A DNA stretch of 17,765 nucleotides from an archaeon (GCA_035387745.1 DAOOON010000009.1:1-17765); one strand, 5' to 3'; positions 81 to 17,765 are shown, numbered from the stretch's first letter. Notes: generated by a model not told the origin, from the letters alone. Program-made: numbers and translations.

Positions 81-1118
81 TTATTTCTTTTTCTGAGTGT
101 TTTTAGTAATGTCTTTTGTTTTCTCAAGTAGTTTATCAAAATCAGATTTAAAAAGTCTGTCTTGAACCACTCTATATTTTTCAAATTCCGATTCTGCATG
201 TTGTTTAGCAATCTCTTGAGTAATACTTCCAGCATTTTTTAATAATTCCCTTTCATCAAATTTTAAAAAAGCATCTAGTCTCTTAGACCAATCTTCCATG
301 CTCATAGGTATTTTTCGTTTAGCCCTATCTTCTGCTAAATCAAGATACGCAGACACAATTCTACTTAAAGACTCTAGTTCTTCTTTTTTAAGATAATTTT
401 TAGCAACACTTACATCTGTTTTTATTATTTTTCCAGTAGGTGCATTCTTCCAAGAAGTTAAGCCCATATTTTCTTTTTTAGCATCTGCTCTTTTTATTAT
501 TAACTCAGGAGCAGTATTTTGATGTATTGCAAAATGCAATTTATTTTGAACTTTTGAAAAAAAATCTCTAGTAGTTTTTGCACTTTTATCATAATCTACA
601 CTTGTAGAATAGATGTCTGTAATTTTCTGATAAAAATTTCTTTCACTAAGTCTAATCTCTCTAATTTCATCTAGTAATTCATTAAAATAATTTTTATTAA
701 AAAAAGAGCCATTTTCTAATCTTTTTCTATCCAAGACATATCCTTTTATTGCAAATTGTTTTAGAATCTTTGTAGCCCAGATTCTAAACTGTGTTGCCTT
801 TTTCGAATTAACCCTGTAGCCAACAGAAATAATTGCATCCAGATTATAAAATTTAGTTAAATATTTTTTTCCATCATTAGCAGTATGTTCCAAAATGGAA
901 CTAACTGATTCTTCAACAAGTTCCTGATTTTCAAATATATTTTTAAGATGTTTAGTAATTGCTGGCCTTTGTACTCCAAACAACAAAGCAATTTTATCCT
1001 GAGTAAGCCACACATTTTCATTATGCAAAAATATTTCGATTTTTACATCTCCTGTAGGAGTTGTATAAAATAAAAACTCATTAGAAGAACTATCTTTAAT
1101 AATTTCTTTATTTTTCAT
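81..1118 (-). CDS. RhuM-family protein (virulence protein RhuM-like)
   Basis: The track ORF 81..1133 begins at a TTG (1131-1133). An ATG five codons in (1116-1118), preceded by GTGAT, is the likelier start. The protein carries the conserved RhuM-family core I recognise: VWLTQDKIALLFGVQRPAITKHLKNIFENQEL ... DGKKYLTKFYNLDAIISVGYRVNSKKATQFRIWATKILKQFAIKGYVLD. Confidence 0.85.
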   Translation of the reverse strand: MKNKEIIKDSSSNEFLFYTTPTGDVKIEIFLHNENVWLTQDKIALLFGVQRPAITKHLKNIFENQELVEESVSSILEHTANDGKKYLTKFYNLDAIISVGYRVNSKKATQFRIWATKILKQFAIKGYVLDRKRLENGSFFNKNYFNELLDEIREIRLSERNFYQKITDIYSTSVDYDKSAKTTRDFFSKVQNKLHFAIHQNTAPELIIKRADAKKENMGLTSWKNAPTGKIIKTDVSVAKNYLKKEELESLSRIVSAYLDLAEDRAKRKIPMSMEDWSKRLDAFLKFDERELLKNAGSITQEIAKQHAESEFEKYRVVQDRLFKSDFDKLLEKTKDITKNTQKKK

Positions 1119-1177
1119 ATTTATCACAGGCAATTACATTTAACTATAAATATATTAAATTTAGTACTTTAAAAAAC

Positions 1178-1189
1178 TTTCGGGGGTAG
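1178..1189. repeat. Right copy of exact 12-bp direct repeat TTTCGGGGGTAG
   Basis: Same 12-mer as 58-69. It lies 59 nt upstream of the RhuM ATG (1118), inside the divergent intergenic region shared with the symporter gene. Confidence 0.6.
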
Positions 1190-1258
1190 GTGTCCAATGA
1201 AGTAAAACCTTTTTAAATTCTTTTGTTGTCTGTTTATTTATAAAATGGATTTGATATA

Positions 1259-2623
1259 ATGAATATAATTTTAATAATCGTAATTGTTTATTTTGTGTTA
1301 ATGCTTGGGGTTGCATGGTATTTTTCCAGAAAAGAAAACATTGAAACTTATTTTTTAAATAATAAAAAAACAGGTTTGTGGTTGATGGTTTTCTCAAACG
1401 TAGCAACATTAATTGGGGCGGGCGCCGTAGTTGCAATGGTTTCTGAAGGTTACAATTCAGGTATTTCTTATGGACTAGCATCAATTGTTCTTTCTATTGT
1501 AGGAATGATAATTTTAGCAATATTTGCAAAAAGATTAAGACAATATAGTGAGAATAATAATATTTATTCGATTGCAGATTTTTATGAAAAAAGATTTGGA
1601 CCAAATAATAAAAAGCTTCTAACAATCCTACAACCAATTTTAATGATTATTTGGGTTGCAGTTCAAGTTATTGCAATTTCAGCAATGGCTAGTTTTTTAA
1701 TTGGAATAAATTCCACTCTTGCGATTATTCTTGCGGTTGGGATTACAATAATTTATACAACCCTAGGTGGATTGAAAATAGATATTATCTCTGATTGCAT
1801 ACAATTCTGGATGATTTTAATAATTTTAATTGCAATTGCAATATTTGGATATTTTCAAATTGGGGGATTAAATCAATTAGTACTATCAGTTCCAAAAGGT
1901 CATTTGAATCCATTTGCTTTTGGTGGATTAAGTTGGTTTATTGGAATGGTTTTATTTAGTGGTTTTATGTATTTGGGAAATGGAGCGCATTGGCAAAGAA
2001 TTTTGTCTGCAAAAAATTCAGATGTTGCAAAGAAATCTTATTATTATTCAATACCATTTATGATAATAATAAGCGTAATTATTATTTTTTTAGGATTATT
2101 AGCCGCAGTTATTTTATCTAATATAAACCAAGATCAGGCAATATATTTATTAATGTATAAAACTTTACCGGTATGGATGGTTGGGTTAGGATTTGCAGCA
2201 ATACTTGCAGTAGTAACTTCATCAATTGATAGTTTAATGATTGGAGGGTCTACAATAATTTATAAACAATTTTTTAGTACAAAAGAAAAGAATAATCTTT
2301 TGTACGCAAGATTAATAACTGTTCTTTTTGGAATAATTAGTGGAGTTATTGCTTTTATTATTCCAAGTATAATCAAATTATCTCTTTTTGTTTCATATAT
2401 GGCATTAATGTTCGTACCATCAGTTATTGCAGGTTTCGTTTCTAAGAAAACATCTGGGAAAGCAAGCTTCTATTCTATATTGCTTTCGGTAATTTGTTTA
2501 TCTGGTTTATATTTCTTTACAAGTTACAGCAAATCCAGTTTTATACTTGGGCTACTAATTGCAGTAATTACAATTTTATTTTATGATAAAGTTTTCAAAA
2601 AGGACGCAAATAAAGCTTTTTAA
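1259..2623 (+). CDS. Sodium:solute symporter family (SSF) transporter, substrate unknown
   Basis: 454-aa ORF that is hydrophobic throughout, with roughly 12-13 membrane segments. The N-terminal ETYFLNNKK...SNVATLIGAGAVV...GYNSGIS and mid-protein GGLKIDIISDCIQ regions resemble SSF signature regions. Confidence 0.8.
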   Translation: MNIILIIVIVYFVLMLGVAWYFSRKENIETYFLNNKKTGLWLMVFSNVATLIGAGAVVAMVSEGYNSGISYGLASIVLSIVGMIILAIFAKRLRQYSENNNIYSIADFYEKRFGPNNKKLLTILQPILMIIWVAVQVIAISAMASFLIGINSTLAIILAVGITIIYTTLGGLKIDIISDCIQFWMILIILIAIAIFGYFQIGGLNQLVLSVPKGHLNPFAFGGLSWFIGMVLFSGFMYLGNGAHWQRILSAKNSDVAKKSYYYSIPFMIIISVIIIFLGLLAAVILSNINQDQAIYLLMYKTLPVWMVGLGFAAILAVVTSSIDSLMIGGSTIIYKQFFSTKEKNNLLYARLITVLFGIISGVIAFIIPSIIKLSLFVSYMALMFVPSVIAGFVSKKTSGKASFYSILLSVICLSGLYFFTSYSKSSFILGLLIAVITILFYDKVFKKDANKAF

Positions 2624-2646: not shown

Positions 2647-3471
2647 ATGACTATACAGTTAAAACAATTTACTCCAGGAAAAGGAGCAATCTATTATTTT
2701 TCAGGAACTGGTAATACCGCTTTTGTGGCTTTCGAGTTTCAAGAAAACTATAAAAAAGCAAATGTTTCTGTTGATCTCTTCAAAATAGAAAATACAGATA
2801 TTGTTTCAAGTCAAGGCAAGTATGATTTTCTAATGCTTGGCTTTCCAGTATATGCTTTTTATCCGCCAGATCTAGTTGTTGATTTTGTAAAAAAGTTGCC
2901 AGAAGTAAAAGATAAGCCTGTTATTCTTTTTGCAACAGCAGGAATAACAACAGGTATAAGCTTTAATGTTCTTGAAAATATTCTTAAGAATAAAAACTAC
3001 AACGTTATTTCTAATTTTGCATATATTATGCCAGACAACGCCTATTTTGTTTTTAGAAAAGACACAGACAAAGATGAGCAGATTGAGTTATCTCTAAATA
3101 ACACAATAGGGAAAATCAATCAAGATTTTGATATTCTAATTTCTGGCAAATCTAAGTTTAAAAAAGCAAATGTCTTTTGGTCTTTGTTTGCCCCATTAAC
3201 TAAGTTTTTCTTTTTTAAAATTCTTCAACCAAAGAAAAATCGTTTCGTATGGGACAGAGAAGCCTGTAACTATTGTGGGCTTTGTGCAAAGATTTGCCCA
3301 ACAAAGAACATAACAATAAAGAAAGAGAAAGGCAAAGTAATCTTTGGTAACAACTGCATGTTCTGTACAAGATGTTATCATTTCTGTCCACAAAAGGCAA
3401 TACACAACAAGTCCATAAACAGAACAAAAAAATACAGAAGATATACAAGACTAAAGAATGAAATAATTTGA
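2647..3471 (+). CDS. Flavodoxin-like domain fused to 2x[4Fe-4S] ferredoxin domain (EFR1-family-like)
   Basis: 274 aa. The N-terminus has the flavodoxin-like IYYFSGTGNT motif. The C-terminus has two CxxCxxCxxxCP cluster motifs (CNYCGLCAKICP and CMFCTRCYHFCP). It starts 23 nt after the symporter stop. Confidence 0.75.
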   Translation: MTIQLKQFTPGKGAIYYFSGTGNTAFVAFEFQENYKKANVSVDLFKIENTDIVSSQGKYDFLMLGFPVYAFYPPDLVVDFVKKLPEVKDKPVILFATAGITTGISFNVLENILKNKNYNVISNFAYIMPDNAYFVFRKDTDKDEQIELSLNNTIGKINQDFDILISGKSKFKKANVFWSLFAPLTKFFFFKILQPKKNRFVWDREACNYCGLCAKICPTKNITIKKEKGKVIFGNNCMFCTRCYHFCPQKAIHNKSINRTKKYRRYTRLKNEII

Positions 3472-3943: not shown

Positions 3944-6475
3944 ATGTTAAAAAGAAATTATGTCTTGTTATTTCTAATATTTTCAATATTAATCTTTCCA
4001 ACGATTTCTGCAAAGTCTTTTGCAATAACAAATTATGATATCAATTATACTCTTGAGCAATCCGGGATAGTTTCTGTTTCTGAAAAGTTAGATTATAAGT
4101 TGTCTGGCTGTTATAGAGAGCTATTTCTTCAAAGGCCAAATCTAGAAATTCTAAATCCAAGCGGCTATTGCCAAGGCGCAGCTTGCTCCTTTGAATACAA
4201 GCAAACAAACACAGAATCTGGAGACCCCGAATTAATACTAAAGGGCAATTTTTGTGATATAACAGTTACTGCAAATTTTAATTATAATCTCGTTCATCAG
4301 ATTAGGGCTTTAGAAGACGGAACACAATTCTATTATCAAGTTTATCCAGGAAAGACAAGCGTTTCGACAAACACCAAAATTTCAATTTCTTTTCCAGGAG
4401 ATTTAAATCAAACAACGCGGTTTATTCATTCTAGAAACTATCAATCATCGGCAACGGAAAGCAAGTTAACAATTTCAAAATCTGTTGCAGCATATGAGAT
4501 AATTGAAGTAAACATTCTAATGCCAAAGGCCTGGTTTATAGAAGATAATCTTTATCGTTATAAAGATGTAAATTATACACAAGTCCAGATAATACAACAA
4601 GAACAAAATTGGCAAGAGGAATATGATAAATATAATCAAAATCAATCAATAACTTCATCAAGGATGAAATACGCAATTAATAATTACGACATAAATTATA
4701 TTTTAAACACCTCAGGAATTATCGAAGTTTCAGAAAAAATAGATTATACTGTAAACGATTGTTTAACACAATTATCTATTCAAAGACCAAATGATATTAC
4801 GAATCCATCAGGTTATTGTGTTGGTGCAACTTGTAATTTTTCTTATAAAACTAAAAATACATTGTCGGGATATCCCGAGTTAATATTAGATGGAAATTTT
4901 TGTAATATAAATGTTACTGCTTATTTTAATTATAATTTAGAAAAAGAGATATCAGGATTGTTAGATGGCACACAATTACGTTTTGATATATATCGTAATA
5001 AAATGGGGGTGCCTACAAATATTAACATTTCTATGTTTTTCCCTGGAGATGCAAATAAGGTTACAACTTTTTTTTACCCTTCAGATTATCTTGCCAAAAC
5101 AGATGGAAATGTTTTATTGTATGAGCGGGCAGTAAATGAATTTGATACTGTATATCTTCTGGCAGTAATGCCAAAAGAATGGTTTGATCAGAATAACATT
5201 TATTATCAATCTAATTACACTGTTTCTCAAATAATAGAGGCAGAGGAACAAAAATTAAAACTGCAGGAAGAACAAAGATTAAAAATCGAAGAAGCAAGAT
5301 TGAAACAAATAGAAGAACAAAGGTTAATTCTTGAAGAACAAAGATTAAACCAATATAGCAAAGTCAACCAAAATTTTATGCCGGGCATAAAATCACAAGA
5401 ACCAAACACTGATTGGTTATTAAATTTCTTATTGTATAGTGGGATTTTAGTAGTTATATTACTAATTATCTGGTTCATATTTGGAAGAGATTATTCTCCA
5501 GAACAAGTAAATTATCTTGGGATATATGAAAGAGATTTACCGGGCGATGATGATCCATTAAAGGCCCATTATTTAATTACCGGTGAATTTTCAAAAGATT
5601 GGTTTTCTTCTGCGATCTTGTATTTAGTATGGAAAAAACAATATAATCTAGAAAAAAGAAAAGACAATTATTTTTTAATAAGAAATAAATCAATAAAATT
5701 GGGAAATTTACCAAGTTATATAATGAAGATAGATAAATTTCTTAATAAACATTATCCTGAAGGAGAAATCGATTTAGATTTATTAAAAAAAAGATTAAAA
5801 AGTCAATCTCTCTTTTCAGAAGATTATAGACAAAATTATAAAAAAATAATTGCTCAAGGTTATGATTTTACTGTACTATATCAAAAGATATATACAGAAT
5901 ATGACAGTTGGTTTAATAAAAAAAGCAAATTATTTGATCAAAAAGGATATATAATTGCAACATCTATTTTTAGTATATTTATTGTTTTTTCATTCTTTTT
6001 TAATAGCGCAATATTTGTCATGTCTATTATAGTAACAATTCTTGGTTCAGTAATATTATTGTTAATTCCACGCCTTTTTAAATTTAGATTAATATTTGGG
6101 AAATTTTCAAAAGAGGGCAGAATAAAAAATCTTCAATGGACTAATTTCAAAAAGTATATTACTGATTTTTCTTTAATGAGAGCGCACCCTCCACAACATG
6201 TTATTCTTTGGGAAGAATATATGGTTTATGCAACTGCTTTTGGAGTCGCTAAAAAAACCTCTAAAGTTTTAGAAATAGTTATGCCACAAGAAATTAGATC
6301 CAATCAGATGGTTGCCACTTATTCGGGGTTTTCATCTATATCCTCTGATTTCTCAGGAGTTGGTGGTTTTTCTGGTTCAGGGGGTTCTGCTGGTGGTGGC
6401 GGAGGCTTTGGCGGCGGTGGCGGCGGAGGCTTTGGCGGTGGTGGTGGAGGCGGCGGTGGCGCCGGTGCTCGCTAA
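3944..6475 (+). CDS. DUF2207-family membrane protein with tandemly duplicated ectodomain, coiled-coil spacer and poly-Gly tail
   Basis: 843 aa with a signal-peptide-like N-terminus (LLFLIFSILIFPTISAKS). It has two homologous ~190-aa ectodomain copies, an EEQRL repeat and a TM segment (LLYSGILVVILLIIWFIFG). Two further TM segments follow, then the conserved block NLQWTNFKKYITDFS...ILWEEYMVYATAFGVA and a GGGGFGGGG tail typical of DUF2207 proteins. The start is 3 nt after the gpt-like stop, with AAGGA upstream. Confidence 0.85.
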   Translation: MLKRNYVLLFLIFSILIFPTISAKSFAITNYDINYTLEQSGIVSVSEKLDYKLSGCYRELFLQRPNLEILNPSGYCQGAACSFEYKQTNTESGDPELILKGNFCDITVTANFNYNLVHQIRALEDGTQFYYQVYPGKTSVSTNTKISISFPGDLNQTTRFIHSRNYQSSATESKLTISKSVAAYEIIEVNILMPKAWFIEDNLYRYKDVNYTQVQIIQQEQNWQEEYDKYNQNQSITSSRMKYAINNYDINYILNTSGIIEVSEKIDYTVNDCLTQLSIQRPNDITNPSGYCVGATCNFSYKTKNTLSGYPELILDGNFCNINVTAYFNYNLEKEISGLLDGTQLRFDIYRNKMGVPTNINISMFFPGDANKVTTFFYPSDYLAKTDGNVLLYERAVNEFDTVYLLAVMPKEWFDQNNIYYQSNYTVSQIIEAEEQKLKLQEEQRLKIEEARLKQIEEQRLILEEQRLNQYSKVNQNFMPGIKSQEPNTDWLLNFLLYSGILVVILLIIWFIFGRDYSPEQVNYLGIYERDLPGDDDPLKAHYLITGEFSKDWFSSAILYLVWKKQYNLEKRKDNYFLIRNKSIKLGNLPSYIMKIDKFLNKHYPEGEIDLDLLKKRLKSQSLFSEDYRQNYKKIIAQGYDFTVLYQKIYTEYDSWFNKKSKLFDQKGYIIATSIFSIFIVFSFFFNSAIFVMSIIVTILGSVILLLIPRLFKFRLIFGKFSKEGRIKNLQWTNFKKYITDFSLMRAHPPQHVILWEEYMVYATAFGVAKKTSKVLEIVMPQEIRSNQMVATYSGFSSISSDFSGVGGFSGSGGSAGGGGGFGGGGGGGFGGGGGGGGGAGAR
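4019..4606 (+). repeat. DUF2207 ectodomain copy 1 (intragenic tandem duplication)
   Basis: FAITNYDINYTLEQSGIVSVSEKLDY...PSGYCQGAACSFEYK...GNFCDITVTANFNYNL...DGTQ...FPGD aligns collinearly with copy 2, at roughly half identical residues by eye, and all 4 Cys are conserved. Confidence 0.85.
4670..5247 (+). repeat. DUF2207 ectodomain copy 2 (intragenic tandem duplication)
   Basis: YAINNYDINYILNTSGIIEVSEKIDY...PSGYCVGATCNFSYK...GNFCNINVTAYFNYNL...DGTQ...FPGD. The copies differ heavily at synonymous sites, so the duplication is old. Confidence 0.85.
5237..5353 (+). repeat. Heptad-like EEQRL coding repeat (predicted coiled coil) inside the DUF2207 gene
   Basis: The translation is EAEEQKLKLQ EEQRLKI EEARLKQI EEQRLIL EEQRLNQ. 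A 17-nt exact DNA repeat GAAGAACAAAGATTAAA occurs at 5267-5283 and 5333-5349. Confidence 0.8.
6356..6472 (+). repeat. G+C-rich poly-glycine coding tract (C-terminal tail of DUF2207 protein)
   Basis: It encodes GVGGFSGSGGSAGGGGGFGGGGGGGFGGGGGGGGGAGAR. The 17-nt GGCGGAGGCTTTGGCGG occurs at 6398-6414 and 6422-6438 (24-nt period). This is the strongest local G+C spike in the window. Confidence 0.9.
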
Positions 6476-6548: not shown

Positions 6549-8963
6549 ATGGTTTCTAAAGAAAAAAAATTTATAATGTGGTTTGATGAGATTGGAATAG
6601 AGGATATTCCTTATGTTGGAGGTAAGAATGCATCTCTTGGTGAGATGTACCAAAATCTAGGAAAAAAAGGAGTTAAAGTTCCTTTTGGCTTTGCAATCAC
6701 AGCTTATGCTTATAGGTATATTCTTGAGAAATCAGGTCTAAAATCAGAGATTAAGAAAACTCTAAAAGATTTAGATACCCACAACATGGATTCTCTAGCT
6801 GAAAAAGGACACAAAGTTAGACATTTAATAAGACATGCAGATATTCCAAAAGATCTAGAGAAAGAAATCTTTGCAGCTTATGATAAGTTATGTAAAATAG
6901 AAAAAATAAATAATCTAGACGTTGCTGTTCGTTCAAGTGCAACTGCAGAAGATCTTCCTGACGCATCATTTGCTGGACAACAAGAAAGCTATCTTAATAT
7001 TAGAGGAAAAGAGGATTTATTAGAAGCAGTAAGAAAATGCTTTGCTTCTCTTTTTACAAATAGGGCAATATCTTACAGAGAAGACAAGCACTTTGATCAT
7101 TTTAGTATTGCTCTTTCTGTTGTTGTTCAAAGAATGGTTAGAAGTGATTTAGCGTCTTCAGGTATTATGTTTTCAATTGACACAGAAACAGGTTTTAGAG
7201 ATGTTGTAATAATCAATTCAACTTATGGTCTTGGAGAAAACATTGTTCAAGGTGCAGTTAATCCTGATGAGTTTATAATCTTTAAACCAACTTTAAAGCA
7301 AAATAAAAAACCAATAATCTCAAAAGTGCTTGGAGAAAAAGCAATAAGAATGGTTTATGATACACAAGGTAACAAGCCAACCAAAAACCTTTCAGTTGAA
7401 CCAAACGACAGAAACAAGTTTTCAATAACCGATGAACAGGCATTAAAGCTTGCAAAATGGGCTTGCGATATTGAGGATTATTATTCTAAAAAATCAGGAA
7501 AGTTTAAACCGATGGATATGGAATGGGCTCTTGATGGTAAAACAAACGAGTTATTTATTGTTCAAGCAAGGCCAGAAACTGTGCAGTCAAGAAAAGATTT
7601 AAACAGCTACACAACCTACGTCATTAACACAACAGCTAAGCCAGTAGTTGTTGGTAAAAGTGTAGGTCAACAAATCTCAACAGGTAAAGTAAATATTATT
7701 AAAGACGCAAAAGAGATTAATAAATTTAAAAAAGGAGAAATTCTAGTAACAGAAATGACAGACCCTGACTGGGAGCCAATCATGAAGATTGCTTCTGGAA
7801 TAATTACAAACAAAGGTGGAAGAACCTGTCATGCCGCAATAATCTCAAGAGAGCTGGGTATTCCTTGTATTGTAGGGACACTTGATGGGACAACAAAACT
7901 AAAAGCCGGAAAAAACATAACAATGGACTGTTCAAGCGGAGATGCTGGTTTTGTTTATGAAGGCAAAGTTCCATTTACAAAACAAACAGTAGATCTAAAA
8001 GAACTACAAAAAACAAAAACACAATTAATGATGAATGTTGGTAACCCTGAACAAGCTTTCGATTTAAGTTTCTTGCCAAACGAAGGAGTGGGTCTAGCAA
8101 GAGAGGAGTTTATTATCAACTCTTGGATACAGATTCATCCTCTTGCTCTTATCAATTATTCAAAAATAAAAGACGCAGAAACAAAAGAAAAGATTGATGC
8201 TTTAACTGTTGGTTATAAAGACAAGAAACAATTTTTTGTTGATAAACTAGCACAAGGTATTGCAAGAATTGCAGCGGCCTTCTATCCAAAGAAAGTAATT
8301 CTAAGATTATCAGACTTTAAATCAAACGAGTATGCTAACCTTATTGGTGGCAAAGAATATGAACCAGAAGAAAGCAATCCAATGATAGGTTGGAGAGGTG
8401 CTTCAAGATATTACCAAGGAAACTATGTTGCTGGTTTTGCTTTAGAGTGTCAGGCAATTAAAAAAGTTAGAGAAGATTTTGGTTTAACCAATCTAGAATT
8501 AATGGTTCCTTTCTGTAGAACACTTGACGAAGCAAACAAAGTTCTTGCAGAAATGAAAAAGAACGGTCTTGAGAAAGGCAAAAATGGTTTAAAGGTAAAC
8601 TGTATGTGTGAGATTCCATCAAACGTTATTCTTGCAGACAAATTTTTGGAGATCTTTGACGGTTACAGCATTGGAAGTAATGACTTGACACAATTGATTT
8701 TAGGCCTTGATAGAGATTCCGAGTTATTGGGGAATATCTACGACGAAAGAAACGAAGCAGTAAAAAAGATGTTAACAGACGTCATAAAGATAGCAAACAA
8801 GAAAGGCAAATATATTGGTATCTGCGGACAAGCGCCATCTGATTATCCAGAGATGGCAGAATTCCTAGTAAAAGAAGGAATAAAATCCATGAGTCTAAAT
8901 CCAGACACAATTATAAAAACAAGAATGGCAATAGCAAAACTTGAAAAGTCTTTAAAGAAATAA
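6549..8963 (+). CDS. ppsA: Phosphoenolpyruvate synthase (pyruvate, water dikinase)
   Basis: 804 aa. The N-terminus has the ATP-grasp motif WFDEIGIEDIPYVGGKNASLGEM. The phosphohistidine swivel motif GGRTCHAAIISRELGIP places the His codon at 7830-7832. The C-terminus has the PEP-utilising motif SIGSNDLTQLILGLDRDS. AGGAG lies about 10 nt upstream of the ATG. Confidence 0.97.
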   Translation: MVSKEKKFIMWFDEIGIEDIPYVGGKNASLGEMYQNLGKKGVKVPFGFAITAYAYRYILEKSGLKSEIKKTLKDLDTHNMDSLAEKGHKVRHLIRHADIPKDLEKEIFAAYDKLCKIEKINNLDVAVRSSATAEDLPDASFAGQQESYLNIRGKEDLLEAVRKCFASLFTNRAISYREDKHFDHFSIALSVVVQRMVRSDLASSGIMFSIDTETGFRDVVIINSTYGLGENIVQGAVNPDEFIIFKPTLKQNKKPIISKVLGEKAIRMVYDTQGNKPTKNLSVEPNDRNKFSITDEQALKLAKWACDIEDYYSKKSGKFKPMDMEWALDGKTNELFIVQARPETVQSRKDLNSYTTYVINTTAKPVVVGKSVGQQISTGKVNIIKDAKEINKFKKGEILVTEMTDPDWEPIMKIASGIITNKGGRTCHAAIISRELGIPCIVGTLDGTTKLKAGKNITMDCSSGDAGFVYEGKVPFTKQTVDLKELQKTKTQLMMNVGNPEQAFDLSFLPNEGVGLAREEFIINSWIQIHPLALINYSKIKDAETKEKIDALTVGYKDKKQFFVDKLAQGIARIAAAFYPKKVILRLSDFKSNEYANLIGGKEYEPEESNPMIGWRGASRYYQGNYVAGFALECQAIKKVREDFGLTNLELMVPFCRTLDEANKVLAEMKKNGLEKGKNGLKVNCMCEIPSNVILADKFLEIFDGYSIGSNDLTQLILGLDRDSELLGNIYDERNEAVKKMLTDVIKIANKKGKYIGICGQAPSDYPEMAEFLVKEGIKSMSLNPDTIIKTRMAIAKLEKSLKK

Positions 8964-10187: not shown

Positions 10188-10259
10188 GATATATAAATAT
10201 ATATTGCTTTTATTTATATAGGATAAAATATATTTTAAAATATTAAAGAAAGAAAATAA
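10188..10259 (+). promoter_or_regulatory. Putative promoter/leader of the giant ORF (TATA-like elements)
   Basis: GATATATAAATATATATT (10188-10205) and TTTATATA (10213-10220) lie about 40-70 nt upstream of ATG 10260. No clear Shine-Dalgarno motif is present (AAAGAAAGAAAATAAATG). AT-rich background makes such matches weak evidence. Confidence 0.3.
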
Positions 10260-13200
10260 ATGGCAAAAGAAAAAGCAAAACCTAAAGGCTCTAAAGCCAA
10301 AAAAGAAGAAACAGATTTTGAGGATACAGAAATTGATGATTATTCTGAAGTTGATGAAGAGTTCTCAGAAGAAAATATAGGCAAGCAAACAGAGAATAAC
10401 ATCTTTGGCAAAGCCTACAAGTGGTTAGAAACAAAATATTATTCTTTCTCTGATTGGCTAACAAAGAAAGGAATTAATCTTAATAAGGCAAATGATTTCT
10501 TAGAAGAAAAAGGAATTCCTGCCTTTGTGTTTGTTGCAAGTCTTACACTGATTATTTTAGCGGTCCTAATTTTTTTAATAATAAATTTTGCAACAAAGAC
10601 AACAGTTGAATTTTCAATAGTTGATTTTTCTAATAATCCATTATCAGATGTAGATGTTAAAATCTATGATTTAAAAGACAAAACAAAGTTTAATGGAACA
10701 ATAAGTGACGGCCACAAAGCAAGACTTTCTCTTAAGTCAGGAATAAATTACACAATAAATGCCACAAAATCAGGATTTGCAGATTATGAAAAAGATAATT
10801 TATTTACTAGAGGAGAGCCAATAAAAATAAAATTCTCTGAAAATGTAACTCTTGGCAATTTTAAATTATCAGTAACAGATTTAGAAACTAAAAAAGCAAT
10901 TTCTAATTATAGGGCAATTTTAAGTTATGATATTAGTGGAAAACCGCAAGAACAAACAGCAACTCCCGGAAGTGCAAATCAAATAAGTTTTACAGATGTT
11001 CCCTTAGGCAAATCTTTGTCATTAGTTATTGAAGCAGATGGTTATCAAACAGTTTCTAAATCTATAACGGTGTCAAATAATGAAGAAATAATACCGATTG
11101 AATTACAATTTGATCTTGATTCTGCGCAATTAGAAGGACTTGATGCAAGGGGCACAATTGTAGCAGTTTCAGACACTGGAGATGTCTTAGATGATTGTGA
11201 AGTTACAATTTATAATATCTCTGACGAAAAAATAGCAACAGGCATAACTCAACTAGGCAGATTTACATTTACTGAAAAAGTAGGTTCAGTAATAAGATTT
11301 GTTGTAACAAAAGAAGGTTATAAAACATACGACAGTGATGAAGAAAATAAAACTTTCAGATTACTAAGAAGTGAAGACACTTTTACTGCAACATTAAAAA
11401 AAGGCAGTTCTGATTTAAAAGTAATGGTTGTAGAAGATATGGTTGGTCCAGTAAGTGATGCAGATGTTTCTTTATATAATCTAGTAGGGAACTTATTGAC
11501 AGAAAAAACAACCTTGCTTGATGGAGAAGTTATATTTTCTGGTCTTGATAAAAACAAAGATTATATTGTAACAGCATGTAAAGAAGATTATCTTTGCTCT
11601 CAATATTTTGTAAATATAGATAATGGTAATGATTTAGAGGCAAAGCTTGTTAAGTTGGGTTCTGCAGAAACTTACAAATTATCAATATATGTTTATGATG
11701 GTGCAAACGCCCCACTTTCAACAGCAAATGTTTTAGTTTATAAATTATTAAATGGAAAATATGTGCCAATCGGTTTTGGGCCATTACAAGTTGATTTAAC
11801 AGGCTACACATCTGTCTTTACACAAAAGGCAGAAACATATAAAGTTGTAGGCATTGCCGGGGATTCAAATGCTTCTCAAGAAATCACAATTGATCAGTTT
11901 AAAGATAACAAAGTAATATTGATAATAAATGATGCATCAAAAGAAGTAACCTTACAATTAAAAGACATTTATGGCAACCCAGTAATTGATGGTTATGTAA
12001 TAGTTAAATCAAAAACCGGAGAAATTCTTTACGAAGGTTATATCGATGCAGAAAATCCTGCTAAATTTTCAACAAAAGGCTACAAAGATTTGATTGTAGA
12101 ATATCTGGATGAAGAAGGCAATACCACGGTTGCTTCTGCAGTAGTGGGATCTGGAGAAGATTTAGTTGTAAGCTTAAAACCAATGATTGAGGATTTTAAT
12201 CCAATAATTTCTTTCTTAGAAATAAGAGATTTACAAAACAATTCTACAAGTATATTAAGTAAAGATAAAGATTATTATTTAGTGTTTGATTTACAATTGC
12301 CAGTAGATGTGAAAAAATGTGGAGTTCATTTTAGAGCAGGAAAAGATTCAGAAAATGATTCTGAAAATATGGATTATGGTATAACTGGATTTAAAGCAGA
12401 TACAACTAGCTTTAAATATTCCACAACATATAATGAAGGGCAGCAATCAATTGATTTTGATAATGTTGGTTCTCCAAATGAATTAAATAAATGGTTAGAA
12501 TTGTATTGGCCAGATGTGTCATTAACAAATAAACAAATAATGTTAAAAGTTAAAGCTACAGAAATTGGGGATTTGCTTCTAAGATATAGAGCGTGGTGTG
12601 AAGATAGCGAAGGTAAAATCTATAGAGATCCAGAAGATACAACATTAGGAACTGCCAGAAACAATTCTTCAAAACAAAGCCTATATGCAGAAACAAAAGA
12701 ACAAGTATTTAAAGTTTTTGAAACTCCTGCAGAATGTTCAGACAATCTGTGTGTAGAATATAAATTTTTAGATAAAGGCGGTTTTGATTATTCTAATGAA
12801 ACTTTTTTTGGAACAGTTGATGAAATGTATTTATTAGAATTAAATTACTATAGTCCAAAATCCGGAGAATTAACAATTGATACTGAAACAGATGCAAGTC
12901 ACCCAATTATTGGTTTAATAAATTATCAAGACACAGATTTGTTTCCAAGTTCAGAACAGGATTCTCAAGAAACAAAATTAAGTTCTATGGCTGTTTCTTT
13001 ACAATCGGGGATTTATAGAAAACAATATTTATTATTTAATGCAAAAAATATAGGTGTAACTTATATAGATATAAAATCAACCTTTAATTCTAATGTTACA
13101 GAAAAAAGATTAACCTTTGAAATAAAGAATAAAAGAAATTTAGAAGTAAATGTTTCAGAGTTATTACCATATAACACACCAATAACAATAGAAGTAAAAG

Positions 13201-16200
13201 ATGCAGATAACAAAAGCCCAATCAACAACGCACTTGTAAAATTAGAAGACGAATTTGGAGATCTTATTTCAAGTACAAAAAAAGCAAAGGCAGGAAAATA
13301 TATAATTAATCAAAACTTTTCTAGTTCAAAACCAAATTTAGAAGTTATGGCGCCTGGTTATGCACCATACACTCAGCAATTAATGATTGCAGATACTGGT
13401 TTAATTTCAGGTCCTGATAGTATTTCTATAAACTTTGGTAATGAAATTAGTCAAGAAACAGAAATAATAACTTTAGTAAATAAAGGAAATGCAAAGATTA
13501 CGGATTTGACATATCAAATTACACCAATTGATGAGGTTGCAGAATTAACTATAGAGACTCAATTGCCAGTAACACTTAATCCAGCAAGCCCTTCAGAAAT
13601 AGAAGTGACTTCAGTAATTGATCCAAAACTAAAATTTAAAACTGCAAAATATGTTTTAACAATATTTGGTTTTGTTGGCAACAAACAAGTTGCAAAAGAT
13701 ATTGAGATTGAAATTTATAAGGGGCAAGTACAAGAAAATTGTTTAGATATAAAACCTCTTGCAATTTATAGTTATGTAGGCATTAGTGAGGGTTCTGAAA
13801 ATGAGATAACTGCAACGTTAGTTAACAATTGTAAAAAAGCAATTACAGTTACTCCAGAACTATTAAAAGCAAAAGGCACAGTAATTAAGAAAGATGAAAA
13901 TTTAGAAATTGTTCTTCCATCAGTAACAATAGAACCAAATGAAGAAATAACAGATTACACAATAACTATAAAAAACAACAAGGCTCGAAAGACTACAAAA
14001 AGCTATATTTTTGAGATTGCTTGGAGAAATGCGTATTATGCTTTACCAAATACAAAATTAAATGTTGACTTAGTTGATTATTCTAAGACCATAAAGATTA
14101 TTCCACCAGTTTCAATTGTATCAATGAGTCAATTTAATGAAGAGATAGTTGCTTCAAATAAAACGGTTTTTTCAATAACAAATACCGGCAAATACCCCTT
14201 AAAGGACATACAAATATCAAGGTTGGAAGAAAAATATGTTTCTAATATTCAAGATAAGATTGAACCAATAACTTTTGAAGAAATAAAACCTGGCCAAACA
14301 AAACAAGTTAGTATTATTTATGAAGGCAAAGTGAGCAATGCAACAAGAGCGACACTTTTCTATAAAGTGACTGCAATTTCTCCTGGTTCAAAGGATCCAA
14401 TAGATGCAAAATTTACTGTAGATTTTAGAATTTCTTCAGCAAGTTGTTTAAAAATAGATCAAAAAAAGATTGCGTTCTATACTAGAATTGGAGAAGAAAA
14501 AATCAAGTTAATTAATATAACAAATCAATGTGCAGAGCCAATAGCATATATAGATTATGATATAAATCCTAATAGGGCACCTAATGATTTTACTTTGGCA
14601 TTTGGCGAAGGCACAGGTGTTGCTTTAGTTCCTGCAACCCCAATACCATTTATAGGTATTGGTCAAACTGTTCCTTTCTATTTGAAAGTAAAACCAACCA
14701 GATATTTTACTCCTAGAACGGAGAATAGATTTACAATAATAGGAATTCCAGTAAATAACACCGCATTAAGTATGGTGACTTCTGAAATTATTTGGATTTC
14801 AACAGAAGTAGAAGCACCTGATGAAGACACTGTAGAAGATTTAGAGAGAATAGAAGAAAATATTTCAGTAAAAATTTGTGATTCAGATGAAAAAATGGAT
14901 GTTGCAATGCCTAAGATTGTTACAGATTGTAAAGAAGATGGTTATTGTGATGCAGAGGGTGCAGCTGAATTAATATTAGAAAAAATTCAAGAACTACATA
15001 ATGTTGTCATAGATGTTTCAAAACAATTAAATAATGAACTTGCACAAACAAATTGTTCTATGGCTACATCACAGCAAAATGGCTGTGTAATTTCTGATTT
15101 ATTAAAGCCAGACCAGTTAAAGTTATTTAAGAACATTCCAATCTATCTACAAAACGATTCACTATCTCAAAGAACCTTAGAAATTGTTTTGGGCAACACT
15201 AAAGAGGCAACAAAATATCCAACCATTAAAAATTATGCAATAAGAGAAAACGTAGGTTCAACTTCTGGTGGTTTACAGATGATTGGAAACATCATACATG
15301 TAGACAATAAAATGCAGGGTTGTGGAAGATATAAAATAACAATAGATGGGAGAATTGCAACAAAGGATCAAAAAACCCTGGCTCCAGAGAAAGCGTATTT
15401 CTTTGTAACTATAGATTATAATAAAACAGGCCCTTGTGCAAAAAGTATAGAAAATGTAAGAATGTATTTACCAAAAGATACAACGCATTTTAAAAAATCA
15501 AATATGGGCGACACCTGGCTAACAATGATTAGTGGCGATGAAAACATTGGCAAAACGATTGCAAAACAAGCATTCGATAGCGATGAAAGATTCCAATTAA
15601 GGACAGACAACATTAAAAAGTTTAGTCAATTAGATGTTTCAATTGGCACAATTACAGAAAATGAAAATGCAATTGCAAAATTGTATTTTAATAATACAAC
15701 AACGGCAACCAGTCCTCAGCCAGAAAAGGTTAATTTAGTTGTAAATGATTATTATACAATAAATAAAGAAGGAGAAGAATCAAAATATTCAGAAGAATTT
15801 GTAAAGCAAGTTTCTGAAAATGTAAAAGACATAATTAATGGAACTCCTGCAGACATATGTATTTCACAAGATAAAAACTATATGTTAATTTTATCTTTTG
15901 AAGCCGCAGAATATGGAGCTTTATCTTTAAAAGCGCAAAATGATAAATTACAATTAACACCTTTAGAAAAATGTGTTGTTCTTACTGCACAATCAGCAGT
16001 AGCTGAGAAAATAACTGTTAAGTATGAAGATATTTTAGGCGTAAGAACTAAATTTAATTATTCAGGACAAGACTATACAGATAAATTGTCGCTAGTTCTT
16101 GAAAAAGACAAGCCAACAGATTTTAATGTTTGTTTCTTAGGAGATATTGGGCAAGTAGTTAGCTGGTCTGATCAGAATGTAAAAATAATTGCTGAGAGCG

Positions 16201-17765: not shown

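What the first reader, a model, noticed from the sequence alone, without database searches (positions are those of the whole stretch)
10260..17765. Unlisted giant ORF: >2,502-codon membrane-anchored surface protein running off the window
Seen directly: TAA at 10257-10259, ATG at 10260, then 2,502 sense codons to the final base with no stop. In DNA this AT-rich, a non-coding frame hits a stop every few dozen codons at most, so this is coding. It covers 42% of the window, yet the ORF track shows only two short antisense ORFs here. Architecture read from my translation, in order: an 85-aa charged cytoplasmic head; one TM anchor; six tandem beta-sandwich repeats; about 320 aa of non-repeat sequence; a seventh repeat; four Ig-like repeats; about 575 aa of Cys-containing non-repeat sequence; a second hydrophobic Gly-zipper cluster; an unrecognised C-terminal region; and a coiled coil still open at 17765. 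Inference: this is a cell-surface contact or adhesion machine. Giant ORFs of this style recur in small-genome episymbiont lineages (DPANN, CPR) and are largely uncharacterised. I recognise no catalytic or named adhesin family in most of it.
Basis: partly seen in the sequence, partly recalled or inferred. Interest (0 to 1): 0.9.

Follow-up and report, generated by a model that had tools for sequence, protein, structure and literature searches.

The report
Giant wall-targeting surface protein, DPANN archaeon
This is a real 3,066-residue membrane-anchored surface protein of a tiny DPANN archaeon, cut short only by the contig end; in a minority of its relatives the far end carries enzymes that cut bacterial cell walls, which hints that these archaea attach to or attack bacteria.

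Summary
Window 10260-17765 is one open frame of 2,502 codons. The other five frames have 97-270 stops each.

The window is a whole contig (ENA ERZ761564 NODE_3623). A second assembly that differs by 3 nt carries the gene to its stop at 3,066 aa.

The protein belongs to an uncharacterised family of about 150 clusters in 1.84 billion proteins. Named members are DPANN archaea: Iainarchaeota/Diapherotrites and Micrarchaeota. The parts, in order:
- a conserved cytoplasmic 'KGIP' motif and one strong TM helix
- about 14 beta-sandwich domains
- a family-specific Cys-rich alpha/beta head with no PDB match
- a weakly hydrophobic small-residue helix cluster
- a species-level hypervariable segment and a long coiled coil
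- an exchangeable C-terminal tip

In at least 14 of 129 relatives the tip is a canonical murein hydrolase (NlpC/P60, SLT, Amidase_3, glucosaminidase or GDSL). In this gene's clade it is an unrecognised Cys/His domain that aligns weakly with NlpC/P60.

The gene heads a conserved module that continues with a pilin-like protein and further KGIP-anchored giants.

Best reading: a long-reach device for contacting and breaching bacterial cell walls. Large murein-hydrolase proteins in DPANN are already reported, so I class this as a new variant of a known kind.

The parts
10213..10220 (+). TTTATATA, a TATA-box-like motif 40-47 nt upstream of the ATG, inside a 167-nt AT-rich intergenic spacer
   Evidence: Read directly from the sequence. 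This is a motif match in 27% GC DNA. It is compatible with an archaeal promoter but is not evidence for one.
10260..17765 (+). First 2,502 codons of a 3,066-codon gene ('giant 1'), truncated by the contig end
   Evidence: No stop in frame. The near-identical locus L020 carries the full gene at L020:10726-19926. There are 22 homologues and 153 family clusters.
10260..10394 (+). aa 1-45: Lys/Glu/Asp-rich N-terminal extension, presumably cytoplasmic
   Evidence: Sequence composition. It is conserved (77-91% identity over aa 1-100) in six of the seven orthologs at 58-79% overall identity (P0002-P0007), with no aligned match in P0008. It is absent from distant family members, which start near the KGIP module.
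10395..10517 (+). aa 46-86: conserved juxtamembrane 'KGIP' module (..YxxLExKYYxFxDxLxxKGIxLxKxxDFLEEKGIP)
   Evidence: Nearly invariant residues Y53, E57, L67, K70, G71, K84, G85, I86 and P87 across 21 family members. The same module heads the co-located giants 2 and 3. No Pfam or NCBIfam model covers it.
10518..10592 (+). aa 87-111: the single strong transmembrane helix (PAFVFVASLTLIILAVLIFLIINFA), the membrane anchor
   Evidence: Kyte-Doolittle 19-residue maximum of 3.25, the only segment above 1.6 in the whole 3,066-aa protein.
10593..12176 (+). aa 112-639: about six tandem CarboxypepD_reg-like beta-sandwich domains, the proximal stalk
   Evidence: Iterated profile search finds units at 112-195, 200-281, 299-368, 386-461 and 562-639. 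There are weak Pfam bMG3, PEGA and NOMO1-like hits. The unit at about aa 470-555 is inferred from spacing only.
12177..13172 (+). aa 640-971: strongly conserved all-beta region of two to three tandem sandwich domains
   Evidence: AlphaFold2 model mb4b4744ea633, pLDDT 88.7, contains only beta strands. Foldseek finds tandem Ig-like adhesin and stalk domains (AgI/II C-domains, PrgB, CFA/I pilins, integrin legs) at E down to 6e-9, but TM is only about 0.3. There is no sequence match in the PDB. Invariant residues include R692, G694, D732, R777, R789, P791, D793, C826 and C831.
13173..13409 (+). aa 972-1050: CarboxypepD_reg domain (PF13620)
   Evidence: Pfam 64.9 bits for the protein against a cut-off of 32.3; best stretch aa 975-1042.
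13422..14834 (+). aa 1055-1525: four Ig-like units in an A-B-A-B pattern, the distal stalk
   Evidence: aa 1055-1164 and 1298-1399 match each other in an iterated search. Invariant Asn/Cys positions recur in the pattern N1074..C1161 | N1189, C1191 | N1308..C1396 | N1422, C1424. There is a weak DUF7507 hit. The B units are inferred.
14847..16289 (+). aa 1530-2010: family-specific Cys-rich alpha/beta 'head' with an embedded beta-sandwich
   Evidence: Model mc2f24ebaa9d0: residues 1-480 are confident, mostly pLDDT 80-95. Foldseek against PDB and BFVD matches only the beta-sandwich part of about 140 aa (TMq 0.15 or less). There is no PDB sequence match. An exhaustive HMMER search finds this region only in this family and, in the longer (near full-length) proteins, at the same position in the protein. 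Invariant residues include C1540, C1557, Y1562-C1563-D1564, G1687-C1688-G1689 and C1726.
16521..16967 (+). aa 2088-2236: cluster of weakly hydrophobic helices rich in small residues (GxxxG/AxxxG-type), then a Gly/Ala/Ser-rich stretch
   Evidence: Kyte-Doolittle 19-residue maxima of 1.0-1.35, and several small-xxx-small motifs. AlphaFold predicts 4-5 helices at low confidence. Conserved Cys motifs, such as 'CGLGCGIP', are in the alignment. In the distant member P0014 two segments exceed 1.6.
16968..17669 (+). aa 2237-2470: the part of the species-level hypervariable segment (aa ~2200-2700) that lies between the hydrophobic cluster and the coiled coil, with no recognisable domain
   Evidence: Over aa 2201-2700, identity to the six orthologs that are 72-76% identical overall (P0002-P0007 excluding none but P0007 at 60%) falls mostly to 20-48% per 100-aa window, with a low of 6% in one window of P0006. 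It recovers to about 50-75% after aa 2700 in most of them. No Pfam, NCBIfam or PHROG hit.
17670..17765 (+). aa 2471-2502: start of a coiled-coil or amphipathic-helix region that continues off the window to about aa 2745
   Evidence: Hydrophobicity power at a 3.5-residue period far exceeds shuffles for aa 2470-2805 of the full-length ortholog. The continuation is read in P0001 and L020.

Best explanation
The ORF is the first 82% of a 3,066-aa type II membrane protein of a DPANN archaeon, most likely Iainarchaeota/Diapherotrites or close to it.

Shown:
- The gene is real and complete in a sister assembly.
- The protein has one N-terminal TM anchor, preceded by a conserved cytoplasmic 'KGIP' motif.
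- About 14 beta-sandwich domains follow the anchor.
- Beyond them lies a family-specific Cys-rich head.
- The family has an exchangeable C-terminal tip. In at least 14 of 129 relatives the tip is one or several canonical murein hydrolases: NlpC/P60, SLT, Amidase_3, glucosaminidase or GDSL esterase.
- The gene is the first of a conserved module: giant 1, a 470-600-aa protein with a type-IV-pilin-like N-terminus, a second KGIP-anchored giant, and often a third.

Inferred mechanism:
- The beta-sandwich chain forms a stalk that would be tens of nanometres long if extended. It holds the distal end away from the archaeal cell.
- The head binds a partner's surface.
- The terminal enzyme cuts peptidoglycan locally. 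In this gene that enzyme would be a divergent Cys/His domain, probably NlpC/P60-like, at aa ~2882-3066, outside the window.
- The weakly hydrophobic helix cluster plus the long coiled coil may engage the partner's membrane.
- Archaea have no murein, so the producer needs no immunity protein.

The target is therefore most likely a bacterium. It could be a host, prey or a competitor; the data do not distinguish these.
For: - Real, complete gene.
- Lineage.
- Single strong TM helix and conserved KGIP module.
- Beta-sandwich stalk.
- Family-specific head with invariant cysteines, with no PDB or BFVD match beyond a sandwich subdomain.
- One position-fixed family of 153 clusters among 1.84 billion representatives.
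- Canonical murein hydrolases above Pfam gathering scores at the C-terminus of family members:
  - P0009 and P0011, NlpC/P60, 82-83 bits.
  - P0018, SLT 47.9 bits and GDSL 49.2 bits.
  - The Iainarchaeum ortholog in L009: NlpC/P60 28.5, Amidase_3 72.8 and glucosaminidase 41.1 bits.
  - P0038 and P0125, SLT.
  - These tails also hit phage tail-lysin and endolysin PHROGs.
  - Count across 129 tails.
- The tip is a swap site. P0005 carries a canonical-type NlpC/P60 where its 72%-identical relatives carry the A4 domain, and P0011 carries both.
- The window clade's tip (A4) has invariant Cys2926 and His3002 and a Gln/His at 3019. These align in register with the family's NlpC/P60 Cys, His and His motifs (hhalign local probability 62%, P 7.5e-5).
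- Conserved gene module in 10 of 11 loci, down to 23-25% identity.
- Chromosomal context is conserved, and there are no relatives on viral contigs.
- Literature precedent for large murein-hydrolase proteins in DPANN read as attachment to or attack on bacteria: PMC8204110, PMC9723730, PMC10936187.
Against: - Only about 11% of family tails carry a recognisable murein hydrolase. Most end in other unassigned domains, so lysis may be an accessory function and not the core one.
- The terminal domain of this gene's own clade has no Pfam, NCBIfam, PHROG, PDB or phage match. Its similarity to NlpC/P60 is weak, and its fold was not modelled.
- Everything inside the window is generic stalk or unknown fold.
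- The hydrophobic cluster is below TM thresholds and was modelled with low confidence.
- There is no expression, localisation or partner-organism data.
- Iainarchaeota have been proposed to be free-living (as cited in PMC10936187).
- The pilin-like N-terminus of the neighbouring protein fails the curated model cut-offs.
Confidence: 0.55

Rival explanations
1. It is a structural envelope component or a generic long adhesin (for S-layer support, cell-cell or cell-mineral attachment, or biofilm). It has no wall-degrading role in this organism. The hydrolase tips of some relatives are late accessory additions, and the Cys/His tip here is a binding or inactive domain.
For: About 85-90% of family tails show no recognised hydrolase. 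The window clade's tip has no family assignment. All in-window domains are beta-sandwiches of the kind found in adhesins and S-layer-type proteins. Three co-encoded giants share one anchor, which could build a coat.
Against: At least six different murein-specific enzyme types have been recruited independently to the same terminus in an organism group that has no murein. This is hard to explain without a bacterial wall as the target. In the A4 tip the Cys and His are invariant and the third position is Gln or His across 32-75% identity, as expected of an active site. S-layer proteins are not usually N-terminally TM-anchored proteins of 3,000 aa with a coiled-coil tail.
Confidence: 0.27
2. The hydrolase-type tip acts on the archaeon's own wall polymer (a murein- or pseudomurein-like sacculus) for growth or division, and the giant protein is a wall-spanning scaffold.
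For: The enzyme classes involved (NlpC/P60, amidase, SLT) are autolysins in bacteria. Pseudomurein peptidases are also Cys/His enzymes (my own knowledge).
Against: No wall-synthesis genes are seen in the about 17-29 kb of context examined. Amidase_3, GH73 glucosaminidase and SLT act on MurNAc-containing murein, which archaea are not known to make (PMC8204110). An enzyme held at the end of a stalk of about 2,000 aa is poorly placed to act on its own wall.
Confidence: 0.05
3. It is a gene of a virus or mobile element: a tape-measure or tail-lysin-like protein, or a conjugation wall-breaching protein, sitting in an integrated element.
For: The distal layout (hydrophobic small-residue helices, long coiled coil, C-terminal lysin) resembles phage tape-measure and tail-lysin proteins. 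Relatives' tips hit phage tail-lysin PHROGs. A RhuM-family gene lies 9 kb upstream.
Against: The same housekeeping neighbourhood (flavodoxin/Fe-S protein, PRTase, PEP synthase, LMW phosphatase, LemA) flanks orthologs at 48-98% identity. No relative is found in 2.9 million IMG/VR contigs or in 50,697 phage genomes for the tip. The tail of this gene hits no PHROG. No capsid, terminase, integrase or VirB4/VirD4-type gene is in any locus examined.
Confidence: 0.03
4. It is an assembly chimera or a pseudogene, and the long frame is not a functional gene.
For: The contig ends inside the gene, and coverage or read-level data were not available to me.
Against: An independent assembly from another sample is identical but for 3 nt and closes the gene. 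Orthologs from more than 100 other assemblies are collinear over the whole length. Codon-position GC bias and the 92:62 ratio of synonymous to non-synonymous codon differences (a crude count, not normalised for the number of sites) are as expected of a gene under purifying selection.
Confidence: 0.01

Closest known systems
[quoted passage not shown] 2021, PMC8204110; also noted in PMC9723730 and PMC10936187)
   Same: DPANN origin, a length of about 3,000 aa, predicted extracellular location, and bacterial-type peptidoglycan hydrolase domains. These were read as attachment to or attack on bacterial walls. Some members of the present family carry the same SLT domain.
   Different: Those proteins were reported from Pacearchaeota and Woesearchaeota and are defined by the SLT domain. 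This family is labelled Iainarchaeum, Diapherotrites or Micrarchaeota. It is defined by a stalk plus a Cys-rich head, and its tip is exchangeable among at least six enzyme types or absent. This gene itself has no SLT. Whether the two families are homologous could not be tested here.
Phage tape-measure proteins and tail-associated lysins (for example T5 Pb2-type; my own knowledge)
   Same: The order of elements in the distal third: hydrophobic helices rich in small residues, a long coiled coil, and a C-terminal cell-wall hydrolase. Relatives' tips match phage tail-lysin PHROGs.
   Different: It is not encoded in a virus. It is anchored to the producer's membrane by an N-terminal TM helix behind a beta-sandwich stalk of about 2,000 aa. 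The coiled-coil and hydrophobic parts have no PHROG match.
Gram-positive fibrillar adhesins with tandem Ig-like stalks (AgI/II family AspA/SspB/SpaP C-domains; PrgB)
   Same: Foldseek's best matches for aa 636-975 are these tandem Ig-like adhesin domains (E down to 6e-9). Both follow the general 'stalk plus distal functional region' logic.
   Different: TM-scores are only about 0.3, identity is about 10%, there is no LPXTG sorting signal, the anchor is at the N-terminus, and isopeptide bonds were not tested. The similarity is at the level of a generic fold.
SPEARE proteins of Nanohaloarchaeota (PMC6642349) and the giant membrane proteins of the CPR predator Vampirococcus lugosii (PMC8080830)
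   Same: They are giant surface proteins of ultra-small episymbionts or predators, proposed to mediate host recognition and breaching. Vampirococcus combines giant membrane proteins, type IV pili and murein hydrolases.
   Different: No serine-protease or restriction-endonuclease domain is found here. In Vampirococcus the hydrolases are separate proteins. No sequence relationship was found.
Polymorphic toxin / contact-dependent inhibition proteins (my own knowledge)
   Same: A conserved long N-terminal delivery part with a variable, exchangeable C-terminal effector.
   Different: The effectors are wall hydrolases and not nucleases or pore formers. No adjacent immunity gene is present, and none would be needed in an organism without murein. 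The secretion and anchoring mode is different.

Membership tests
CarboxypepD_reg-like beta-sandwich repeat proteins (Pfam PF13620) | Match to the PF13620 profile above the gathering score | tested here: met
   64.9 bits against a cut-off of 32.3; best stretch aa 975-1042. Five further units were found by iterated search. This names a fold and not a function.
NlpC/P60 cysteine peptidases (Pfam PF00877), for the C-terminal tip of this gene (aa ~2882-3066, outside the window) | Match to the PF00877 profile above the gathering score | tested here: not met
   No hit in P0001 (98% ortholog) or in any of the 9 tip sequences. The feature is met in family members P0009, P0011, P0005, P0026 and the L009 ortholog.
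NlpC/P60 cysteine peptidases, for the C-terminal tip of this gene | Catalytic Cys then His then a third polar residue, in that order and within the conserved motifs | tested here: inconclusive
   Cys2926 and His3002 are invariant, and position 3019 is Gln or His. hhalign places them on the Cys, His and His of the family's own NlpC/P60 domains. The local probability is 62% with P 7.5e-5, but the 3-sequence profile gave only 5.5% and the global alignment 12%.
NlpC/P60 cysteine peptidases, for the C-terminal tip of this gene | Papain-like alpha+beta fold | not tested
A PDB profile search found nothing.
DPANN large murein-lytic-transglycosylase proteins (fam00969, PMC8204110) | SLT / GH23 lytic transglycosylase domain | tested here: not met
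   No SLT hit in this gene or its 98% ortholog. SLT is present in other family members: P0018, P0038 and P0125 by Pfam, and P0084, P0100, P0119 and P0126 by local profile.
DPANN large murein-lytic-transglycosylase proteins (fam00969, PMC8204110) | Sequence homology to fam00969 members | not testable with these tools
   The fam00969 sequences were not at hand.
Phage tape-measure / tail-lysin proteins | Match to a phage tail protein family, and location in a viral genome | tested here: not met
   The tail of this gene has no significant PHROG hit (best E 0.017, unknown function). There is no relative in IMG/VR and no tblastn hit of the tip in phage genomes.
Type IV pilin / class III signal-peptide proteins, for the conserved downstream neighbour (not in the window) | N-terminal [KR]-[GA] | hydrophobic helix recognised by curated pilin models | tested here: inconclusive
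   The motif 'KKGFTLFTALISLLLVS' or an equivalent is present in 9 of the 10 loci with a downstream partner protein, and in a variant form (..SAFNLFTAL..) in the tenth, L016. There is no Pfam hit, and NCBIfam gives only sub-threshold ComGF/ComGE hits (18.7 bits against a cut-off of 80).
SPEARE proteins (Nanohaloarchaeota) | Serine protease, adhesion and restriction-endonuclease domains in one giant protein | tested here: not met
   No protease or endonuclease domain was found by Pfam or NCBIfam.

The most novel reading that the evidence does not exclude
The conserved module (giant 1 with its exchangeable wall-cutting tip, a large pilin-like protein, and one or two further giants sharing the same KGIP membrane anchor) encodes a dedicated cross-domain attachment and penetration organelle. 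With it, Iainarchaeota-type DPANN archaea would tether to bacteria, open the murein layer, and insert the hydrophobic-helix/coiled-coil segment into the bacterial membrane to gain access to the cytoplasm. The KGIP motif would be a new sorting or assembly signal for this apparatus. The Cys-rich head and the hypervariable segment would set partner specificity.
Probability: 0.2. Interest if true: 0.85.

Novelty: new variant of a known kind. Interest (0 to 1): 0.62.

Why it matters
For most DPANN lineages nobody knows who the partner is or how contact is made. Iainarchaeota/Diapherotrites have even been proposed to be free-living.

This family offers several leads:
- It is a giant anchored protein whose far end has repeatedly picked up enzymes that cut only bacterial murein. 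That is a genomic pointer to bacterial partners or prey.
- It gives concrete reagents: the tip domains for activity assays, and the head domain for pull-downs or labelling.
- It defines a conserved gene module and a shared N-terminal anchor motif. Both can be used to find the rest of the apparatus in other genomes.
- The Cys-rich head has no detectable relative in the PDB, so it is a candidate new fold for structure determination.

Tried and rejected
- Searches on the in-window unknown regions gave nothing beyond generic beta-sandwiches. These were Pfam, NCBIfam, PDB sequence profiles and Foldseek against PDB and BFVD.
- A thioester or isopeptide adhesin reading of the invariant 'YCD' motif was considered and dropped. 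The partner Gln ('YLQND') is not conserved in distant members (by inspection of the sequences), and no TED or isopeptide family hit appeared.
- Diversity-generating retroelement targeting of the hypervariable segment was considered. There is no reverse transcriptase in any locus. Between the 98%-identical strains the differences fall elsewhere, at aa 1-250 and 900-1300, so it was dropped.
- The tape-measure or viral origin idea was tested and rejected.
- A profile search with the KGIP N-terminal module returned only 11 short fragments and was uninformative.
- The common C-terminal domain of most other family members (A5) was tested as a degenerate SLT. hhalign aligns its 'PEALLVT..KSgLG' motif with the SLT 'ES' motif, with Lys in place of the catalytic Glu, but at 16% probability only. 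I keep it as a lead, not a result.
- The bacterial sigma-70 promoter scan was not run, because the organism is an archaeon.
- Two literature searches for a description of this exact family found none. The library is not exhaustive.
Full report

Yes. Translating window 10260-17765 gives 2,502 sense codons and no stop. A TAA sits immediately upstream, and the start is an ATG.

In the same stretch the other five frames hold 97-270 stops, and their longest open run is 108 codons. Composition-preserving shuffles reach 128 codons at most. GC by codon position is 0.43/0.35/0.17, a strong coding signature in 30% GC DNA.

The ORF lister omits it only because it does not list ORFs that run off an end of the source.

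The window turns out to be a whole contig, ENA ERZ761564 NODE_3623_length_17765. The gene is therefore truncated by the assembly. An independent JGI assembly (3300010355, Ga0116242_10002173, 37.8 kb; locus L020) differs from the window at 3 of 17,765 positions. There the gene continues to a TAA after 3,066 codons. A 98%-identical ortholog (P0001, GCA_964645375.1) is also 3,066 aa. Against it, 92 codons differ synonymously and 62 non-synonymously.

**2. Whose gene is it?**

The upstream genes are ordinary chromosomal genes:
- a RhuM-family protein
- a sodium:solute symporter
- a flavodoxin/4Fe-4S protein
- a phosphoribosyltransferase
- a DUF2207 membrane protein
- PEP synthase
- a low-molecular-weight phosphatase
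- LemA

Most of this order (all but the symporter, and with a shorter protein in place of DUF2207) flanks an ortholog that is only 48% identical, on a 440-kb contig.

Named relatives of the giant protein are 'Candidatus Iainarchaeum', 'Candidatus Diapherotrites' and 'Micrarchaeota' MAGs. The PEP synthase is 89% identical to proteins labelled 'Diapherotrites archaeon' and 'Pacearchaeota archaeon', and about 70% identical to 'ainarchaeum sp.'. The organism is a DPANN archaeon, most likely in or near Iainarchaeota. NCBI labels for such MAGs are loose, so I do not go further than that.

**3. Anatomy**

Residue numbers refer to the full protein. The window holds aa 1-2502.

*(a) aa 1-45.* A Lys/Glu-rich extension found only in the closer relatives.

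*(b) aa 46-86.* A conserved juxtamembrane module ending in 'FLEEKGIP', nearly invariant across 21 members. No Pfam or NCBIfam model covers it.

*(c) aa 87-111.* The only strong TM helix in the protein, with a hydropathy maximum of 3.25. The distal domains carry conserved cysteines, and no second clear TM segment exists. The simplest topology is therefore N-terminus inside and everything else outside. This is an inference.

*(d) aa 112-639.* About six CarboxypepD_reg-like beta-sandwiches.

It is the best-conserved part of the stalk and folds, at pLDDT 88.7, as two to three tandem all-beta domains. The Foldseek neighbours are tandem Ig-like adhesin and stalk domains: AgI/II C-domains, PrgB, CFA/I pilins, integrin legs and transglutaminase barrels. 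TM-scores are only about 0.3. It is more stalk, not an enzyme.

*(f) aa 972-1050.* The one Pfam-significant CarboxypepD_reg domain.

*(g) aa 1055-1525.* Four Ig-like units in an A-B-A-B pattern.

*(h) aa 1530-2010.* A Cys-rich mixed alpha/beta region with an embedded sandwich, modelled mostly at pLDDT 80-95.
- PDB and BFVD fold searches match only the sandwich of about 140 aa (TMq 0.15 or less).
- A PDB profile search finds nothing.
- This was a multi-domain query against two libraries only, so 'new fold' is a possibility and not a result.
- An exhaustive HMMER search of 1.84 billion cluster representatives finds this region in only 153 proteins. In the longer proteins (mostly 2,400-3,400 aa) it sits at the same position, about aa 1500-2150; about a third of the hits are shorter, apparently fragmentary, proteins. 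It is the signature of one orthologous family and is not a mobile domain.

*(i) aa 2088-2236.* Four to five helices rich in Gly/Ala/Ser-xxx-Gly/Ala/Ser motifs, with conserved Cys motifs. Hydropathy peaks at only 1.35, so they are amphipathic or membrane-active candidates and not classical TM helices.

*(j) aa ~2200-2700.* This segment is hypervariable between species. Identity to the closest orthologs (60-76% identical overall) falls mostly to 20-48% per 100-aa window, with single windows as low as 6%, and recovers after aa 2700 in most of them. It holds an unassignable segment (aa 2237-2470) and the start of a helical region with strong heptad periodicity that runs to about aa 2745.

*(k) Beyond the window.* A second weakly hydrophobic segment (aa 2748-2773), a short region with a conserved 'WYKVTV' motif that looks like a small beta domain (inferred from sequence only), and a C-terminal domain of about 185 aa.

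**4. The informative part: an exchangeable tip**

The C-terminus differs among family members.

By Pfam, above gathering scores:
- P0009 and P0011 end in NlpC/P60 (82-83 bits).
- P0005 carries a canonical-type NlpC/P60 at the place where its 72%-identical relatives carry another domain.
- P0018 has SLT plus a GDSL/SGNH esterase.
- The Iainarchaeum ortholog in L009 has NlpC/P60, Amidase_3 (72.8 bits) and glucosaminidase (41.1 bits) in a row.
- P0026 has NlpC/P60, P0038 has SLT, and P0125 has DUF2272 plus SLT.

These tails also match phage tail-lysin and endolysin PHROGs.

With local profiles seeded from these instances, at least 14 of 129 family tails carry such modules. That is a lower bound, but it is still a minority. 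At least 23 end in another unassigned domain, A5. The rest are unassigned.

The clade of the window gene (10 clusters) ends in a domain I call A4. It has no Pfam, NCBIfam, PHROG, PDB or phage match. It does have invariant Cys2926 and His3002 and a Gln/His at 3019. Profile-profile alignment places these on the Cys, His and His of the family's own NlpC/P60 domains. The local probability is 62% with P 7.5e-5, and weaker with a smaller profile. P0011 carries A4 followed by a canonical NlpC/P60.

I read A4 as a probable divergent papain-fold peptidase. The fold was not modelled, so this stays inconclusive.

**5. A conserved gene module**

In 10 of 11 loci with enough downstream sequence, including Iainarchaeum and Micrarchaeota loci whose giant 1 is only 23-25% identical, the gene order is conserved:
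- Giant 1.
- A 470-600-aa protein. In nine loci its N-terminus reads like a class III (type IV pilin-type) signal, for example 'MNKKGFTLFTALISLLLVS'; in L016 it is a variant (..SAFNLFTAL..).
- A second giant (1,745 to 3,046 aa where complete) that starts with the same KGIP module and TM helix.
- Where the sequence continues, sometimes a third giant (seen in L001, L002 and L009).

Giant 1 and giant 2 are paralogous over aa 53-965, at about 22% identity. Giant 2 lacks the Cys-rich head. The pilin-like partners are orthologous over their first 330 aa or so.

Curated pilin models do not reach threshold on the partner. There is no Pfam hit, and NCBIfam ComGF scores 18.7 bits against a cut-off of 80. 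'Pilin-like' is therefore a motif-level statement. No pilus ATPase or platform gene lies next to the module in the loci examined.

**6. How it most likely works**

*Shown:* a membrane-anchored protein with about 14 beta-sandwich domains, a family-specific distal head, and a terminus that recurrently hosts murein-specific hydrolases. It occurs in organisms that lack murein and sits in a conserved module with a pilin-like protein and paralogous giants.

*Inferred:*
- The sandwich chain is a stalk. At the usual 3-4 nm per domain it would span tens of nanometres if extended.
- The head, and perhaps the hypervariable segment, bind a partner's surface.
- The tip cuts peptidoglycan locally.
- The small-residue helices and the coiled coil may engage the partner's membrane. 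The order 'hydrophobic helices, coiled coil, lysin' is that of phage tape-measure and tail-lysin proteins.
- Self-immunity is free, because the producer has no murein.

The partner is thus most likely a bacterium. Whether it is a host, prey or a competitor cannot be told from sequence. I put 0.55 on this reading as a whole. I put about 0.95 on 'real, complete, N-terminally anchored extracellular stalk protein', and about 0.4 on 'the A4 tip of this very gene is an active murein peptidase'.

**7. Rivals**

- *A purely structural or adhesive role (0.27).* This is the main alternative, because most family tails show no recognised hydrolase and this gene's tip is unassigned. Against it stands the independent recruitment of at least six murein-specific enzyme types to one terminus.
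- *Action on the archaeon's own wall (0.05).* The enzymes' substrate is not known from archaea, and the enzyme would sit at the end of a long stalk.
- *Viral or mobile origin (0.03).* Conserved chromosomal synteny and the absence of relatives from IMG/VR and phage genomes argue against it.
- *Artefact or pseudogene (0.01).* The second assembly and more than 100 collinear orthologs argue against it.

**8. Comparison with what is known**

[quoted passage not shown] They were read as attachment to or degradation of bacterial walls (PMC8204110, which credits earlier notes by Rinke 2013 and Castelle 2015; also PMC9723730 and PMC10936187). The kind is therefore known, though uncharacterised experimentally.

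As far as my two literature searches show, the following are not described:
- this family's definition by a stalk plus a Cys-rich head
- the exchangeable tip spanning NlpC/P60, SLT, Amidase_3, glucosaminidase, GDSL and unassigned domains
- the shared KGIP anchor
- the conserved module with a pilin-like gene and paralogous giants
- its presence in Iainarchaeota-type genomes, a lineage that has been proposed to be free-living (as cited in PMC10936187)

I could not test whether it is homologous to fam00969. Other analogues work similarly but are not relatives: Gram-positive fibrillar adhesins, phage tape-measure and tail lysins, SPEARE proteins, the giant proteins of the CPR predator Vampirococcus (PMC8080830), and polymorphic toxins.

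**9. Verdict**

The gene is a member of an uncharacterised DPANN giant-protein family.

The most telling evidence lies outside the window and in relatives, and the functional link for this particular gene rests on a weak alignment.

I rate it a new variant of a known kind, with interest 0.62.

Noticed in passing
L001:10093-20043; L002:19354-29291; also L005, L009, L010, L011, L013, L015, L016 (downstream of the window's gene, off the contig): There is a conserved module after the giant gene. First comes a 470-600-aa protein with a type-IV-pilin-like N-terminus. Then comes a second giant (about 1,750-3,050 aa). Where the sequence continues, there is sometimes a third giant (seen in L001, L002 and L009). 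Each giant starts with the same 'KGIP' motif plus a TM helix. The module is seen in 10 of 11 loci, down to 23-25% identity of giant 1.
   Followed up: partly
window 10395-10592 (aa 46-111) and the N-termini of giants 2 and 3 in L001, L002 and L009: The juxtamembrane motif (YYxLExKYYxFxDxLxxKGIxLxKxxDxLEEKGIP followed by a TM helix) is shared by paralogous giants and has no Pfam or NCBIfam model. A DNA pattern for it hit 100 places in GTDB representative genomes, and only 17 of those were giant-1 relatives. It may be a sorting or assembly signal. A profile search for it returned only short fragments.
   Followed up: partly
window 3944-6475 (+): This DUF2207 membrane protein is 843 aa and has two copies of the DUF2207 N-terminal domain. 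The copies begin '..ITNYDINYTLEQSGIVSVSEKLDY..' and '..INNYDINYILNTSGIIEVSEKIDY..'. It ends in a run of about 50 residues that is almost all Gly. The protein at the same position in L002 and L005 is only 593-613 aa and begins with the same motif (L002's has no Pfam hit on record), so an internal duplication in this lineage is likely.
   Followed up: no
window 10260-17765 compared with L001:843-8348: The 172 nt differences from the 98% ortholog are not spread evenly. Nearly all fall in codons 1-250 and 800-1300, and long stretches between are identical. This is a mosaic pattern suggestive of recombination between strains.
   Followed up: no
homologues of window 6549-8963 (PEP synthase): P0168, P0186, P0195, P0206, P0222, P0224: Several close relatives of the PEP synthase are about 1,203-1,238 aa and carry intein domains (PF14890 in all six, plus the homing-endonuclease domain PF14528 in five). 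The window's copy (804 aa) is intein-free.
   Followed up: no
C-termini of P0019, P0030, P0037, P0062 and at least 19 other family members (alignment A5): Many other family members end in a domain of about 170 aa with the motif 'PEALLVTvaIwKSgLG ... GC ... CAA'. It has no Pfam or PDB match. It aligns weakly (hhalign 16%) with the N-terminal SLT motif, with Lys where SLT has the catalytic Glu. It could be a degenerate or binding-only lysozyme-like domain.
   Followed up: partly
window 81-1133 (-): A RhuM-family gene (357.7 bits) sits at the edge of the contig. RhuM genes are often linked to islands or prophages. Here it is syntenic in the 48%-identical locus L002, which argues against a recent insertion.
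   Followed up: no
window 1161-1484 (-) and 5227-5478 (-): These two short antisense ORFs overlap the symporter and DUF2207 genes. They look like chance open frames in AT-rich DNA, and no further evidence was sought.
   Followed up: no
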